Positions 8,610 to 58,719 of a DNA stretch of 64,000 nt are shown piece after piece. Source of the stretch: Octopus sinensis. Lineage: Eukaryota. Within the stretch, counting starts at the first letter, position 1. Each line of letters begins with the position of its first letter. The notes under the pieces were generated by a model. The model was not told the DNA's origin and did no database searches. It saw nothing but the letters and a program-made list of their open reading frames with translations. Position numbers and translations under genes: made by a program. The stretch covers positions 112,716,001-112,780,000 of the forward strand of contig NC_043003.1 in NCBI RefSeq assembly GCF_006345805.1, written 5' to 3'.

Positions 8610-8715
8610 ATCACGACAATTGTTTCGATATATCTAACATCGATTCCTCTTGGGTGTCACACTCAACAACTGGTTCAGAGGCATCCAGTGGTGCAGATGT
8701 ATCTCCTCGGGTGAT
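8610..8715 (-). ncRNA. Type I hammerhead ribozyme motif (U4C core variant)
   Basis: ATCAC-CCGAGGA-GATACATCT..AGATATATC-GAAA-CAATTG-TC-GTGAT: stem I 5 bp, stem II 8 of 9 bp, palindromic stem III, GUC triplet. Confidence 0.7.
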
Positions 8716-11365
8716 AAATAAATATATATATAAGAGAGAGATAAGTTATATTAAATCACTGAGCTAGAGATAAACAGTGACAGTACGGAATCGTCATAAA
8801 AACTTTGCCAACTAAATGTGGCGGTACTATAGAGTGCGGTACTACGATTGTTTTTAGCCCCATGAAGACATCTCCTCCAACTGGTCAACGACACGCAGTC
8901 TGTGTCCGATTAGTATTTGCGAGGGAGGTCATCGCTTCCATCTCTAGCCTTACGTGATACATGCAGACCCGACTTTCTGTGTGGTTACCCGTCTTCAGTG
9001 TGTGTTAATCACAAAATGATGTATCCTTTTTCTAGCGACACACTGTCGCTGATCTTATAAAGGAGAGAGATAAGTTATATTAAATCTCTGAGCTATGCCG
9101 CCATTCGTCTTTCCACACGGCCTCAGACGCAACATGGAGGCCTACATCAAGTGTAGGTTTCAAATTTCTTTAGCAATTAAAATAATTTCGCTTCAAAAAT
9201 TACTATTAAATGTGGTTTTGGTCGATTTGACTGCTTCTTCTAGCGTGTAAAAATACCTGTTAAAGGTAGTTTTCTTTTGTCTTTAAATGTACACTTTTAT
9301 ATTGAGTATATGTTGTCTATTGACTATTTATACACTGGGCCACTGGTGGTGATATTTCTAAAAATATTCGCTACCTTACATATGTATCTTACGAATATGA
9401 TCTTAGCATTTTCGAAGATCAGCTCGGCAGTATCTACTTACTGCCGACTGAAACCGCACTTACGCGCTGAATTTTAAAACGTTATAACATATGATGAAAC
9501 ACGTGTTATTTGTCTCTAAATTATAAGCTGGTTGTTAAGGCACGGTTACTGATGAGAATTCGCCTAGCAAATTATTTTGTTTGCCAAAGAAATTTGAAAC
9601 CTTGGGTTAATCGCAAAAAATAACAAGGTAAAAGTTTTTATTTTTTATTCCCTTCGAAAATTGCTATTAAATGTGGTTGTGGTCGATTTGACTGCTTCTT
9701 CTAGCGTGTAAAATTACCTGTTAAAGGTAGTTTTCTTTTGTGTTTAAATTTACACTATTTTACATTGAGAATATGTTGTCTATATATATATATATATATA
9801 TATATATATATATATATATATACAGGCCGAATAGCCCGTCGTTACCAGGCAATTCTTACAATAGAATTTCTTATATAAATCTTCGTTTATTCCATGTCAG
9901 ACCATGCCTTCCCTGACAGATAGGCCTCTTGATCAGGACAGATTTGTGCAATTTTTCCCAAAAAACTTCGTTTAGTGTTTTTATGCTTTTTAAAATATTT
10001 ATATGTCTGTTTGACCGTTTCACGTGACTGTATTCATTACAACTTCAGAAATTGTTACAACTTTCGTCGTCGTAATGCTTTGGTTTCGATTGTTTAATAA
10101 AAATTCCTCCTCCTAATGATTTTGTTTTTATTTTGTGATAAACAGCCATCATGCAGAAAATGCCAGCTGTCATGCAGCTACCATGTAGAAAATGCCAGCT
10201 TCCAAATCCCGTTTTCTGCAATTTTTCTGGAACAAATCAATCACAAAAATGGTTTTAACGTGGAAAATTATTTTAACATACCAAATTTGAAAATTTTGAC
10301 GTAATTTCACAATGTATGAGAGTAACATGGAAGACCCTAAAAAAGTAGAGAGACAGATAGTTATAGCACGTGACACACACAAATTTACAAAATAGTGTAT
10401 AGTAGACATGTATGTATATATACGTATATATATGTTTGTGTGTGTGTCTGTATGTGAGTGTTTCCTTGGACATCAGAAAAGCTACCTACCCCCTCTCTCT
10501 TTAAAGCTACGTATTCCTTACACCCACCTTTCTCTCCGTGTGTGTTTGTGTGTGCGTGAGTGTGTGTGTGTTGTATCTATGTATTTACGAAAGTATGTAT
10601 ACAGCGTCGCGTGTATATGACAGATGTGTTAACGTCACCATCCCATTGCCACTCTATAATTGTCGCTTATATAACGCTGCTCTCGCCTGCCCTGATATAT
10701 CTCCCCCTAACTATGCTACTGCGTTTCCTTCAGACTAATACTTTCCGCACACTTTTCATTTTGTCATATAATTCGCCCAGCCCCATCCTGGGGAGCGCAT
10801 TATAGATTTTTATTGAAGTCCAATCAGCCTATTATTAAACTGGACGTTAGTGTAACATGTATGCAACATTTCGTGAATATTGGTTCACTGGTTAGACAGT
10901 ATGATGGTAACGGACAGGCAGAAATTACCATCTATTTACGGTGCTTTATTTGGTTGGAAAGTGATACTTTGGATTGAAAAGATATTTTAATTTTTTTTTA
11001 AGACTTTTTACTGATCTCGGCGCTGTTAACGACTCGGCGTTCAGTCGAAAATACTGGCAAGATGTAGCAATATGTTAAAATTGTGTCTCAGCTGACGAGG
11101 ACTAATCAAAGTTATTTTGGAAAGACCGAAACTAGCGCCCTAGATTATCTATTCTGGGTTGTCCTTTTTTACGATGTTCGTCCAAGAAGACAAAAATTTT
11201 TAAAGTTCGCTGCTCGCATACATCTATACGTCGTATCGTTATCGACTGCTATTTCCAGCAAACATTGGTGTCTTGTACCACTATTCTTATTTATAATTCT
11301 ACCTTTGCGGTGCTTTATTTGGCTGGAAAGTGATACTGTTGCATTGCAATGATATTTAATATATA

Positions 11366-12656
11366 CGAGGGGCGTTCAATAAGTAATGCCTCTGACCCAC
11401 TTGCAGTTGTTTGATCTAGCTGAAATTGTGCATGTGCAATTATTTATATCTCTATAGATTAAGTAACAAATTACAGCTCTGAACTAATTGTGGTTTCCAA
11501 TTTACAGGTTTTTGAACTGAGTCAAGGGTGAAATAGAGCATGTTGAGTGTCGAGCAGTGATCCGGTTTTTGTATTTAAAAGGACGCACACCACGGGAGAC
11601 TTTTGATGAAATGAAAGTAACTTATGGTGATGATGCCCCATCATATGACCTTGTAAAACGCTGGCATCGTGAATTCAAACATGGTCGGAACACTGTGGAA
11701 ACAGCTCCCAGATCCGGTCGCCCCCTTCTGCCATTGATGAGGCATATGTCTGTCAAGTTGAGGCTGCCATTTTGGAAGATCGACGCATAACTATTCGCCA
11801 AATAGCCCATGAGGTCAAGATTAGTACCGGGTCTGTGGAAACTATCATTCATGACCATTTGCATATGCAAAAGGTGTCTGCCAGATGGATTCCCAGGTTG
11901 CTCACACCTTTCCAGAAGCAAGAACGCGTCGATTGCTCGTGGATGAATTTGGAGACGTACCAAGGAGATGAGTCAAACTTTTTCAAAAGACTGATTACAC
12001 GGGATGAAACCTGGGTCCATCACTATGATCCAGAGACCAAAGCCCAGTCAATGCAGTGGAAGAACCGTGACTCACCTCCTCCAAAGAAGGCAAGGGTGCA
12101 GCCCTCCGCTGGCAAGGTCATGCTTACAGTATTCTGGGACCAGGAGGGAGTAGTGAGGACAGATTTCCTGGCAAAGGGTGCCACAATTACAGGAGTCTAT
12201 TATGCTTCACTTTTGAGGAAATTAAGAGAAGCTCCCAAAATCAAGAGGCGGGGCAAGATCAGCAAAGGCATCCTCCTCCTGCAGGATAACGCTCCGATCC
12301 ACAACTCGCGTGTCGCCAGATCAGAAGCACAGGCGTGCGGATATGAACTCATCCCCCATCCCCCCTACTCTTCTGACCTTGCACCCTCTGATTTTCACCT
12401 CTTCCAGCCATGAAGTTGTTTTTGAAAGGAAAGCGTTTCCCAGATGATGCAGCCTTGATTTCTGAAGTCACGTCGTGGTTGGAGGACCAAGTTGGGGTCT
12501 TCTACAAAAAGGGTCTTCAGAGCTGCATCAAACAATGGGAGAAATGCGTAACTCTGGGTGATTCCTATGTAGAAAAAGACTAATAACTGTTCCAAGTTTC
12601 GTTGCTCTACTGCTATGGGAAGTGGGTCAGGGGCATTACTTATTGAACGCCCCTCG
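11366..12656 (+). mobile_element. Full-length mariner DNA transposon (DD34D, irritans-like)
   Basis: ~37-bp TIRs CGAGGGGCGTTCAATAAGTAATGCCYCTGACCCACTT, TA on both sides, 1291 bp. Confidence 0.97.
11533..12583 (+). pseudogene. Mariner transposase pseudogene (start codon appears mutated to ATA; two frameshifts)
   Basis: RAVIRFLYLKGRTP HTH; SARWIPRLL; ITRDETW, LLQDNA and HPPYSSDLAPSD (34 aa between D2 and D3). The C-terminus MKLFLKGKRF...WEKCVTLGDSYVEKD* is in another frame. Confidence 0.93.
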
Positions 12657-56756: not shown

Positions 56757-58684
56757 TATATATATATATAATTTTAACCTTTAAAGGGATTTTAATATGC
56801 TGCCACTTTTTGATGAAATCTTTTTCTGAAAAAAATTTCATCCTATATTAATAGTAGATTTATCACCCTTCACTTAGGGACTGGTAACCATTATAAGCTG
56901 TGGTTTGGAATAGTTCACACGTGTGCTGAGGCTAGTTAAAGGATTTTATATTTAGATATAACTGGGGTACTTATGTGTACGCATGACTTTTGCTTCTGCT
57001 TTTTTCCATGGGTGCGTGTAAGTATTTCATTTTATTTCTTTTCGTATTTTCTACTAATGAGAAAAAAATCCATGGGATTAATTCCGAAATTGATTCAATA
57101 TAGAAATAACGAATTTAAAAAGAAATTCTGTTGACTAGCTTCCCGATTTCAGCACGACGTGTATTTATAGTGAGTGTATAATGATATGTGGAAATTTACG
57201 ACTTAAAGTCTGTTATCAGCATATTGGCATGGAAATAATTTTCTTTTGCCCTTGTTTATAAGTTGGTTATAATTTTAACCTTTAAAGGTATTTTGATATG
57301 CTGCCACGTTTTGGTGAAATTCTTTTCTGAAAATATATATATATATATATTATGTGTTTCAGTCTTTAGACTGCGGTCATGCTGGAGCACCACCTTGATG
57401 AATTTTTAAAACGAATGAATCGACTCCAGTATTTTTTTTAACCCTAGGACTAATTCTAAAGATTTCGATGGCCCTACTTATATTGACCATCTGCAATACA
57501 AAAGCCACATGTACTGTTCGAGGAAATTCAAATAATAATAAAACAAAGCCGCAAACTAAACCTGAGGCTAATCTATGGAATATATATCTATAATGTATGT
57601 ATATGTGTGTATGTGTGTGTGTGTGTGTGTGTATGTGTGTGTGTGTGTGTGTGTGTGTGTGTGTGTGTGTGTGTGTGTGTGTGTGTGTGTGTGTGTGTGT
57701 GTGTGTGATATGAAAATGCATGGTTTCTTGTATGAATACTCTTGAGAATATCCACACGCCAGTTTCCAAGATATACTATTTCTCTATTTGCTTTTTTTCC
57801 AGTATTTGTGCTCTTGTTTGGATACTTCAGAAGACATTTAAAAATCTCTCGTTTAAAAGTAAATTCCTTGACCTGTCTCCTAAGAGTCTGTCAGAAGCGA
57901 AAATCTGGATTATGCAAAAAGCTGTATTTATGTATTTATGTTATTTTTATATAGTTTTATCATATGTATGTTAGTTTGATGTGTTTTTCTTTATAAAGAT
58001 CACAGATTATACGGTTGAAGTAATCTGGAATGTTGTTGACGTCATATATCATAGCCTAGTTTTTGCAGACTTCGTGATTAAACCAAGCGAATACATATGT
58101 ATATATATATGTATGTGTGTGTGTGTGTGTGTGTATGTGTGTGTGTGTATGTATTGTATGTATATATATATATATATATATATATGTGTGTGTGTGTGTG
58201 TGTGTGTGTGTGTGTGTGTGTGTGTGTGTATGTTGTGTGTATATATATACATTTATACACACAAGCATACATAAATATATGTATATTACATGGACACAAT
58301 GGACAAATGCGAGCAATGGAAATAATATTCTTAAGATTATAAACCTGGAAACTTACAAAAGTTATTACATCAAGTAAAAGTACAGAAGAAGACAATTTTT
58401 ACATAAAATATTGCAGCTAGGGATAAAATTTCAAATGAAATATTTAGATTTAGAAAATATTAGCTTTTATTAAAACTAACAATTTTATTACAAGTTATTA
58501 CTTCTATTTGTTATTCTATTAAGAATATTTAAAAAATTAACTCAAAATATGTTTTGCTGTAGTTAAATGATAACGTGTGTATATATATATATATATAAAG
58601 TTAATCCAAACATGAAAACACAACAACGCGAGGACGTTGAACAAGTATAGTGTTATTGGACGCTCAGGAAAGGCAAGAAAGGAG

Positions 58685-58719
58685 ATTTAACGTTTCGAGC
58701 GGAGCTCTTCGTCAGAAAC
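58685..58719 (-). ncRNA. Minimal hammerhead motif, canonical core boxes
   Basis: GTTT-CTGACGA-A-GAGC TCC GCTC-GAAA-CG-TT-AAAT. Confidence 0.7.

What the first reader, a model, noticed from the sequence alone, without database searches (positions are those of the whole stretch)
8610..58719. Dispersed population of ~12 sequence-unrelated hammerhead ribozyme motifs with palindromic stem III
Seen: CUGAnGA/GAAA/NUH cores with closing stems at 8610(-), 11090(+), 20503(-), 23768(+), 28047(+), 34545(-), 34812(+), 34976(+), 35164(-), 47841(+), 48183(+) and 58685(-). Most have different stem sequences, yet the loop-less stem III is repeatedly palindromic or one change away (ACAATTGT, ACGATCGT, ACCGGT, ACGT, ATCACGTGAT). 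Established: such type I/minimal hammerheads fold as dimers and mark Penelope-like element pLTRs and non-LTR retrozymes. Inference: this genome hosts many independent families of short ribozyme-bearing retroelements mobilised by Penelope RTs (one RT remnant is at 59060-60430). Intact copies could cleave any host pre-mRNA crossing this region.
Basis: partly seen in the sequence, partly recalled or inferred. Interest (0 to 1): 0.85.

Follow-up and report, generated by a model that had tools for sequence, protein, structure and literature searches.

The report
Penelope retroelement ends carrying minimal hammerheads
Eleven of the twelve flagged motifs are hammerhead-shaped ends of nine repeat families, four joined to Penelope-like retrotransposon coding sequence and the rest likely of the same kind; this is a known pattern, most copies here are decayed, and one abundant family carries an unusual core change whose ability to cut is untested.

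Summary
Eleven of 12 sites belong to nine multi-copy families, each with a type I minimal hammerhead and a self-complementary, loop-less stem III near a fixed 3' end, mostly abutting (TA)n. Site 20503 is not a hammerhead. Three pairs are related, so the sites are not all unrelated. Only 3 window copies pass a strict descriptor (shuffles 0.025); two more are intact relative to variant families. Penelope-like endonuclease sequence lies upstream of longer copies in four families (Neptune-like F and K, Hydra-like A, D). The RT remnant is a Penelope-type RT but is not joined to the 58685 motif. This matches Cervera and De la Pena 2014, an octopus Hydra-clade hammerhead is already listed in Craig et al. 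2021, and this scan noted single motifs of this kind in two other genomes. Host pre-mRNA cleavage is unsupported. The new detail is family K (34976): U replaces conserved A6 in 43 of 45 copies (A in none), while the free positions 7 and 17 vary. It includes identical young copies and extrapolates to roughly ten to a hundred thousand copies. No cleavage was tested.

The parts
8564..8724 (-). Family A 3' end; hammerhead 8610-8715 with U4C core, about 60-nt loop II, 8-nt palindromic stem III; Hydra-like PLE
   Evidence: 2071 first-look candidates; C at position 4 in 11 of 13 matched copies; endonuclease with CxCX5C linker upstream in 2 of 15 loci
10934..11365 (+). Family B copy, old; hammerhead 11088-11144 decayed (stem III and U16.1 lost); family majority is a canonical core with 7-bp stem I
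   Evidence: 34 matches at 66-89%; alignment; no endonuclease upstream in 20 loci
20494..20542 (-). Rejected site: no GAAA, no palindrome, no family; overlaps a 52-bp exact local duplication (20486-20537 = 23103-23154)
23532..23865 (+). Family D 3' end; intact hammerhead 23769-23804 with the published U3-A8 core swap and 6-nt palindromic stem III; ends in (TA)n
   Evidence: 1446 candidates; same core in 14 of 14 matched copies; endonuclease-like sequence upstream in 1 of 15 loci and by eye in L179
27907..28245 (+). Family E copy; hammerhead 28047-28101, 6-bp stem I, canonical 5' core, A.A mismatch at the base of stem II throughout the family, one change in stem III here
   Evidence: 402 candidates; alignment of 20; no endonuclease upstream in 20 loci
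34506..34611 (-). Family F inverted 5' copy; hammerhead 34546-34578 decayed
   Evidence: 83% to 34781-34884; same divergent layout at 8 other loci listed
34777..34901 (+). Family F 3' end; hammerhead 34814-34846, core intact, stem I damaged; Neptune-like PLE
   Evidence: 200 candidates; RT and GIY-YIG upstream in L058/L142; endonuclease upstream in 9 of 25 loci
34897..35111 (+). Family K 3' end; hammerhead 34976-35013 with A6U core fixed in the family; Neptune-like PLE; young copy
   Evidence: 4 other copies identical over 161 nt; U6 in 43 of 45, A6 in 0; endonuclease upstream in 7 of 30 loci
35112..35133 (.). (TA)n tract in which K (+) and H (-) both end, tail to tail
   Evidence: sequence
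35134..35498 (-). Family H 3' end; intact canonical hammerhead 35167-35252 with extended stem II and 8-nt palindromic stem III; young family
   Evidence: 1788 candidates, top 40 at 98-100%; core and stem III identical in 25 of 25; no endonuclease upstream in 25 loci
47602..48233 (+). Family I: three head-to-tail units (spacing about 270 and 340 nt), retrozyme-like relic; hammerheads 47841-47888 and 48183-48230, both decayed; 3' half of a third at 47602-47621
   Evidence: self-comparison and 20 candidates at 66-89%; coordinates
58592..58800 (-). Family G, about 210-nt truncated copy between (TA)-rich tracts; intact canonical hammerhead 58685-58719; sister of K
   Evidence: 695 candidates, 90-96%; alignment; no endonuclease upstream in 30 loci
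59173..60364 (-). Heavily decayed Penelope-type RT remnant, interrupted by another repeat at about 59700-60087; no endonuclease or own hammerhead end found beside it
14640..14675 (-). Unlisted candidate: canonical core, 4-bp stem I, 6-nt palindrome, stem II broken; no family found, so uncertain

Best explanation
The motifs are minimal type I hammerheads at the fixed 3' ends of nine multi-copy repeat families, four of which are joined to Penelope-like element (PLE) endonuclease sequence and the rest likely PLE-derived, and they likely accumulated as 5'-truncated copies inserted into (TA)n tracts. Mechanism, inferred from published PLE work: the PLE RT-endonuclease nicks AT-rich or (TA)n DNA and reverse-transcribes from the RNA 3' end. 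Copying usually stops after a few hundred bases, so the hammerhead-bearing pseudo-LTR is what gets copied, sometimes with an inverted 5' partial copy. In the parent tandem transcript two hammerheads would pair their palindromic stems III and exchange stem I strands (double hammerhead), probably with help from the element's protein, to trim or circularise the RNA. Solo genomic copies are likely inert and decay neutrally.
For: Shown: families of 20 to 2071 first-look candidates. A fixed 3' end next to a TA/CA microsatellite, e.g. K 29 of 30 at 101-120 nt, D 14 of 14 at 55-63 nt, H 24 of 25 in two classes at 36-50 and 133-137 nt, with ragged 5' ends. Same-strand endonuclease upstream in F 9/25, K 7/30, A 2/15, D 1/15. 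The RT of L142 is up to 69% identical to RT/GIY-YIG proteins. Inverted divergent pairs at 9 F loci including the window. Across F, G and K, 91.9% of 360 cells pair and 6 of 10 pairs change on both sides, against 16-48% paired when slid. Strict hits 3 vs 0.025 in shuffles. Literature: the same features (heterogeneous families, mostly solo, opposite-strand pairs, extra base after A9, palindromic 15.2-16.2, U3-A8 variant) in PMC4209133; (TA)n targeting and inverted 5' copies in PMC8557442.
Against: No endonuclease was found upstream in B (0/20), E (0/20), G (0/30) or H (0/25) within about 1.5 kb, nor a PLE hit in the longer stretches fetched for G and H (L146-L150); family I was not tested. No full-length element with two pseudo-LTRs was recovered. 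Nearest-neighbour co-folding favours the intermolecular stem III only for H (0.95), E (0.92) and partly B (0.35), not for A, D, F, G, K (0.07 or less). The covariation comes from three related families, so it stands for few events, and the number of co-varying pairs was not above the shuffle control (462 of 500). No cleavage or expression was shown. Rfam gave no hammerhead hit among the 150 of 353 rows shown for the window, nor among 4 matches for 34450-35300.
Confidence: 0.88

Rival explanations
1. Most families are dedicated non-autonomous, tandem non-LTR retrozymes that spread through small circular RNAs, as in coral, mussel and axolotl.
For: Family I forms three head-to-tail units of about 270-340 nt. 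Same-strand pairs also occur in B (L084/L088), H and G (L225). No ORF was found for B, E, G, H. A preprint derives retrozymes from PLE pseudo-LTRs (10.64898/2026.07.22.740005).
Against: A, D, F and K carry endonuclease sequence upstream. Most copies are solo with ragged 5' ends and inverted partners, which is PLE truncation, not an array. The described retrozymes mostly carry canonical hammerheads (PMC7229834).
Confidence: 0.1
2. The intact copies act as host-level ribozymes that cut pre-mRNA crossing this region.
For: Three copies pass the strict descriptor and two more match their family's variant core.
Against: No host exon was identified among 81 open frames of 100 aa or more in the window or in 20 kb of flank (by eye, small exons not excluded). 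No two intact same-family copies lie on one strand. Stem I strands differ between families, so mixed dimers cannot close stem I. A single minimal motif gave no detectable cleavage (PMC4209133), and a lizard PLE hammerhead cut only with the element's protein (PMC11167929).
Confidence: 0.03
3. The motifs are chance look-alikes in AT-rich repetitive DNA.
For: True for 20503 and possibly 14653 and 34256; the relaxed descriptor gives up to 5 hits in a shuffle.
Against: Strict 3 vs 0.025. Family majorities restore the motif where the window copy is broken. Compensatory stems between families.
Confidence: 0.01

Closest known systems
Minimal hammerheads (min-HHR) of metazoan Penelope-like elements (Cervera and De la Pena 2014, PMC4209133)
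   Same: Type I topology, loop-less palindromic stem III, extra base after A9 in F, G, K, many heterogeneous families per genome, mostly solo copies, opposite-strand pairs a few hundred bases apart, U3-A8 variant (family D).
   Different: Longer palindromes (8-10 nt) and long loop II in A, B, H, I; family-wide A6U (K), U4C (A) and A.A base of stem II (E) are not among the 56 representatives I read in Fig. S3; no cephalopod is in that list.
Hydra-clade PLEs, including Hydra-1_Obim from Octopus bimaculoides (Craig et al. 2021, PMC8557442)
   Same: CxCX5C linker before the endonuclease, (TA)n insertion, hammerhead near the 3' end (family A); an octopus PLE hammerhead is already tabulated there.
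   Different: The listed Hydra-1_oBim hammerhead has a canonical core and other stems; none of my motif probes for A, E, H or K matched that supplement.
Neptune-clade PLEs
   Same: RT followed by a CX2-5CxxC linker and a GIY-YIG endonuclease upstream of the F and K hammerheads; microsatellite targeting.
   Different: Clade assigned from motifs and similarity, not from a tree; K has an about 0.8-kb low-complexity 3' region and the A6U core.
Non-LTR retrozymes (PMC7229834; preprint 10.64898/2026.07.22.740005)
   Same: Head-to-tail units of about 300 nt with a type I hammerhead (family I).
   Different: The units here are 75-81% identical to each other and both hammerheads are broken; other families are not arrays in this window; no circular RNA shown.

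Membership tests
Minimal type I hammerhead of PLEs | Core CUGANGA ... GAAA ... UH in type I order with stems I and II | tested here: met
   Family majorities of B, F, G, H, I canonical; D has the published U3-A8 form. A, K and E depart at one position (next row).
Minimal type I hammerhead of PLEs | Invariant U4, A6 and a G10.1-C11.1 pair | tested here: not met
   Family A: C4 in 11 of 13; family K: U6 in 43 of 45, A6 in none; family E: A.A at the base of stem II in the 20 aligned copies; family D closes with A-U, or G-C if one extra base is allowed on each side. These are variants, not canonical members.
Minimal type I hammerhead of PLEs | Loop-less or near loop-less palindromic stem III | tested here: met
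   Modal stem III self-complementary in A, D, E, F, G, H, K; with G.U wobbles in B; one-change forms in I.
Minimal type I hammerhead of PLEs | Compensatory stem changes between families | tested here: met
   F/G/K alignment of 36 selected strings: 67 cells changed on both sides vs 23 shuffled; stem II 99% paired. Few independent events.
Minimal type I hammerhead of PLEs | Self-cleavage as a dimer or with protein help | not testable with these tools
   Folding favours the double hammerhead for H and E, partly B, not for A, D, F, G, K; no assay possible.
Penelope-like element | RT plus GIY-YIG ORF upstream of the hammerhead-bearing 3' pseudo-LTR | tested here: met
   Met for F (9/25), K (7/30), A (2/15), D (1/15).
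Penelope-like element | Same, for families B, E, G, H, I | tested here: inconclusive
   0/20, 0/20, 0/30, 0/25 within about 1.5 kb; only top-scoring copies were fetched; I not tested.
Penelope-like element | Fixed 3' end, optional tail, 5' truncation, inverted or tandem partners, (TA)n targets | tested here: met
Penelope-like element | Full-length copy flanked by two pseudo-LTRs; clade by RT phylogeny | not tested
   No complete element recovered; no tree built.
Non-LTR retrozyme | Tandem non-coding units, each with an intact type I hammerhead | tested here: not met
   Only family I is tandem in the window and both its hammerheads are broken.
Non-LTR retrozyme | Unit-length circular RNA | not testable with these tools
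   Only contig-level runs of uncertain type were available.

The most novel reading that the evidence does not exclude
Family K is a recently mobile Neptune-like PLE lineage of tens of thousands of copies whose hammerhead replaced the conserved A6 with U long ago yet kept every other core base and all three stems under selection while positions 7 and 17 drifted. It is either a natural slow or protein-rescued A6U ribozyme, or a hammerhead fold kept for a non-catalytic job such as RT docking or dimerisation. Together with U4C (A), U3-A8 (D) and A.A (E), one genome offers a natural panel to test what PLE hammerheads are for.
Probability: 0.35. Interest if true: 0.55.

Novelty: new member of a known kind. 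Interest (0 to 1): 0.3.

Why it matters
As a class this is explained: dense, diverse minimal hammerheads left by Penelope-like elements were described in 2014. Two points have some value. Density: 12 copies of these nine families in 270 kb of evenly spaced sample (8 separate loci) extrapolates to about 1e5 per genome (Poisson range 0.6-2.1e5, wider given clustering), with the window about four times richer than the sample. Core variants: the role of PLE hammerheads is still open (dispensable for insertion in vitro and protein-assisted in one element, PMC11167929), and a successful family with a fixed A6U core makes 'catalysis or fold?' directly testable.

Tried and rejected
Rfam scans found no hammerhead model: window-wide output was swamped by microsatellite miRNA hits (150 of 353 rows seen), and 34450-35300 gave 4 unrelated weak hits. 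The repeat finder was swamped by microsatellites. Pfam on six read-through frames of 58700-60700 did not recognise the RT remnant; nor did tblastn with 18 Neptune-like proteins (no window hit), a profile of them (best window hit in the right place but E 1.6) or a word-indexed search; the exhaustive search did (3 hits, 2 PLE-type RTs and 1 unrelated repetitive protein). A 121-nt query at 47800-47920 found only itself; a 311-nt query found the family. Sites 20503 and 14653 have no family (this search skips common words, so a blank is weak). Expression: no RNA holder listed; four contig-level runs of uncertain type were laid and cannot show strand, ends, cleavage or circles. A covariance model from F, G, K recovered those 4 window sites and no convincing new one; 16489-16528 at E 0.003 has only the 5' half. 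Mixed dimers between families sharing a 4-nt stem III were considered and rejected because their stem I strands do not cross-pair. The idea that 58685 is the RT remnant's own end was rejected (intervening repeat and microsatellite). Lunse et al. on PLE hammerhead dimers was not available, so its variant list is unchecked.
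Full report
Setting. The window is G000:C7:112716001-112780000 of a 2.72-Gb genome, 36% GC and rich in microsatellites. I take it for an octopus from recalled sequence style; no call names the organism.

Observation. A first descriptor (canonical core, stems I and II of 3 bp or more) passed 2 of the 12 listed sites, 35164 and 58685. Adding the published U3-A8 core gave 3 hits against 0.025 per shuffle (40 local dinucleotide shuffles, max 1). 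A relaxed version, written after seeing the sites and so biased, gave 9 against 0.83 (max 5), of which 7 are listed sites. Rfam showed no hammerhead hit in the rows seen.

Families. I searched the genome with each site. First-look candidates, which are lower bounds: A 8610, 2071; B 11090, 34 (24); D 23768, 1446 (33); E 28047, 402 (25); F 34545/34812, 200 (22); K 34976, 157 (44); H 35164, 1788 (21); I 47841/48183, 20 (28); G 58685, 695 (17). Site 20503 matched only a 52-bp exact local copy (39). I aligned the top 15-30 copies per family, not all. Where the window copy is broken (B, F, I), the family majority restores core, stems and palindrome. So 11 sites fall into nine families, with F and I each present twice and G and K sisters. 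Intact by the strict rule: 23768, 35164, 58685. Intact relative to a variant family: 34976, and 8610 apart from one stem II mismatch. The other six are decayed.

What the families are. A GIY-YIG profile built from PLE proteins found endonuclease sequence upstream on the same strand in F 9 of 25 loci, K 7 of 30, A 2 of 15, D 1 of 15, and none in B (20), E (20), G (30), H (25); I was not tested. For F, locus L142 carries RT and endonuclease pieces; its 184-aa RT frame has 388 relatives at E 0.001 or better, the listed ones 53-69% identical and many with RVT_1, and one scanned example has RVT_1 plus GIY-YIG. The linker motif is Neptune-like. For A the upstream frame has the CxCX5C linker that defines the Hydra clade (PMC8557442 section 11). 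Copies share a fixed 3' end beside a microsatellite (K 29 of 30, D 14 of 14, H 24 of 25, G 25 of 27, A 11 of 12, F 18 of 21, E 15 of 19) and have ragged 5' ends. H ends in two classes, with and without a tail of about 100 nt. The divergent inverted layout of the F pair recurs at 8 other loci. K and H meet tail to tail in one (TA)11 tract. All of this is PLE architecture as described in PMC8557442 (passages). The RT remnant is a PLE-type RT (E 1.8e-12; mapped to 59173-60364), interrupted by one repeat and separated from the G copy by another and by a microsatellite, so it is a neighbour and not the parent of that motif.

Structure. On 36 hand-picked F, G and K strings (of 86 distinct ones found), 91.9% of cells pair, 67 cells change on both sides against 23 shuffled, and slid controls pair 16-48%; the count of co-varying pairs (6) is not above the shuffle. 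These are three related families, hence few events. Co-folding two copies supports the double hammerhead for H (stem III 0.95) and E (0.92), partly B (0.35), and not A, D, F, G, K, where short or competing stems win in a model without tertiary contacts or protein. That is against spontaneous activity and in line with low published rates (PMC4209133) and protein-assisted cleavage (PMC11167929).

Mechanism. Shown: family membership, 3'-end position, microsatellite context, ORF linkage for four families. Inferred from the literature: target-primed reverse transcription with early stop leaves hammerhead-bearing ends; in the parent tandem RNA two motifs form a double hammerhead and process the RNA. 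In a double hammerhead both stem III and stem I are formed between copies, so only same-family pairs work. The window has no intact same-strand pair, which makes cutting of a host transcript unlikely.

Core variants. D has U3-A8 in 14 of 14 (published for Schistosoma PLEs). A has C4 in 11 of 13; U4C is known from a viroid (PMC3088659). E has an A.A mismatch under the core. K has U at position 6: of 48 distinct K-type copies in all fetched loci, 45 were in register, with U6 43, G 1, C 1, A 0; position 7 took all four bases (34 U, 6 C, 4 G, 1 A) and position 17 was A 28, U 16, C 1, while U4 was 45 of 45 and G5 and G8 43 of 45. Copies were picked by the 3' part of the motif and filtered on C3 and A9, so the 88% motif identity against 67% flank identity in 11 distant copies is inflated; positions 4-8 were not selected on. 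Four other copies are identical to the window's over 161 nt. A natural A6C variant cleaves slowly (PMC3088659 section 8). I found no A6U hammerhead in searches (the one listed paper is on twister ribozymes, listing only), in the 56 representatives of PMC4209133 Fig. S3 or in the PMC8557442 supplement. Lunse et al. was not held, and figures and bioRxiv supplements were not visible, so absence from print is not established.

Abundance. In 27 evenly spaced 10-kb stretches, queries from the nine families found 12 copies at 8 loci (D 3, G 4, H 1, K 4); the model R1 found the same 8 G and K copies. The strict descriptor gave 4 hits there against 0-1 in 8 shuffles; none of the 4 belongs to the nine families and some look like chance. 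That is about 44 per Mb, about 1e5 per genome, and about 4e4 for K (range 1e4-1e5); the window, at 11 in 64 kb, is richer than average.

Literature seen. PMC4209133: parts 1-2 of 4 and supplement parts 1-2 of 3. PMC8557442: passages, section 11, supplement hits, including a tabulated hammerhead of Hydra-1_oBim. PMC3088659: passages and section 8. PMC11167929, PMC7229834, PMC6765202, PMC13282606: passages; the last reports 31 recently active Penelope-like families in an octopus and never mentions ribozymes. Preprint 10.64898/2026.07.22.740005: part 1 of 5 and passages. Searches for cephalopod hammerheads gave no dedicated study. Two earlier notes of this scan describe single motifs of this kind in other genomes; none on this genome or like K.

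Verdict. A real, dense population of PLE minimal hammerheads: new members of a known kind. The host-cleavage idea is unsupported. The fixed A6U family is the one lead worth a bench test. Interest 0.3.

Noticed in passing
L221:6195-8344, L235, L165, L039: A young 488-nt repeat in tandem and inverted arrangement (98-100% between units in L221) holds a hammerhead-like string with C at position 6, a 4-nt palindrome and a wobble-rich stem I, plus a second partial core; possibly another PLE-type or retrozyme family, possibly chance.
   Followed up: partly
window 5943-6073 (+): Isolated 5.8S rRNA-like fragment, 55.6 bits, above the Rfam gathering score of 42, with a degenerate 3' part and no other rRNA match among the rows seen; pseudogene or repeat head.
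   Followed up: no
window 11673-12413 (+): 246-aa open frame of a mariner-type transposase (Pfam Transposase_1, E 1.8e-23), close behind the family B copy.
   Followed up: partly
window 20486-20537 and 23103-23154: Exact 52-bp direct duplication 2.6 kb apart with no other match found in the genome search.
   Followed up: partly
window 35341-35492: 78-bp tandem duplication inside the 5' part of the family H copy.
   Followed up: no
window 14640-14675 (-): Unlisted hammerhead-like motif with canonical core and 6-nt palindrome but broken stem II; no family found.
   Followed up: yes
window 50736-51065 (+): Short frame that looks, by recalled motifs, like the RNase H region of an LTR-retrotransposon remnant; observed only.
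   Followed up: no
L149:1960-2290: RT fragment with the DKT motif of Hydra-clade PLEs about 2.4 kb upstream of an H copy on the same strand, but separated from it by (TA)n and other repeats.
   Followed up: partly
L007, L021, L029 (family G) and L186, L191 (family K): Longer copies share 0.8-1.4 kb of CA-rich or CT-rich low-complexity sequence upstream of the hammerhead, so part of this genome's microsatellite-like DNA is carried inside these elements.
   Followed up: partly
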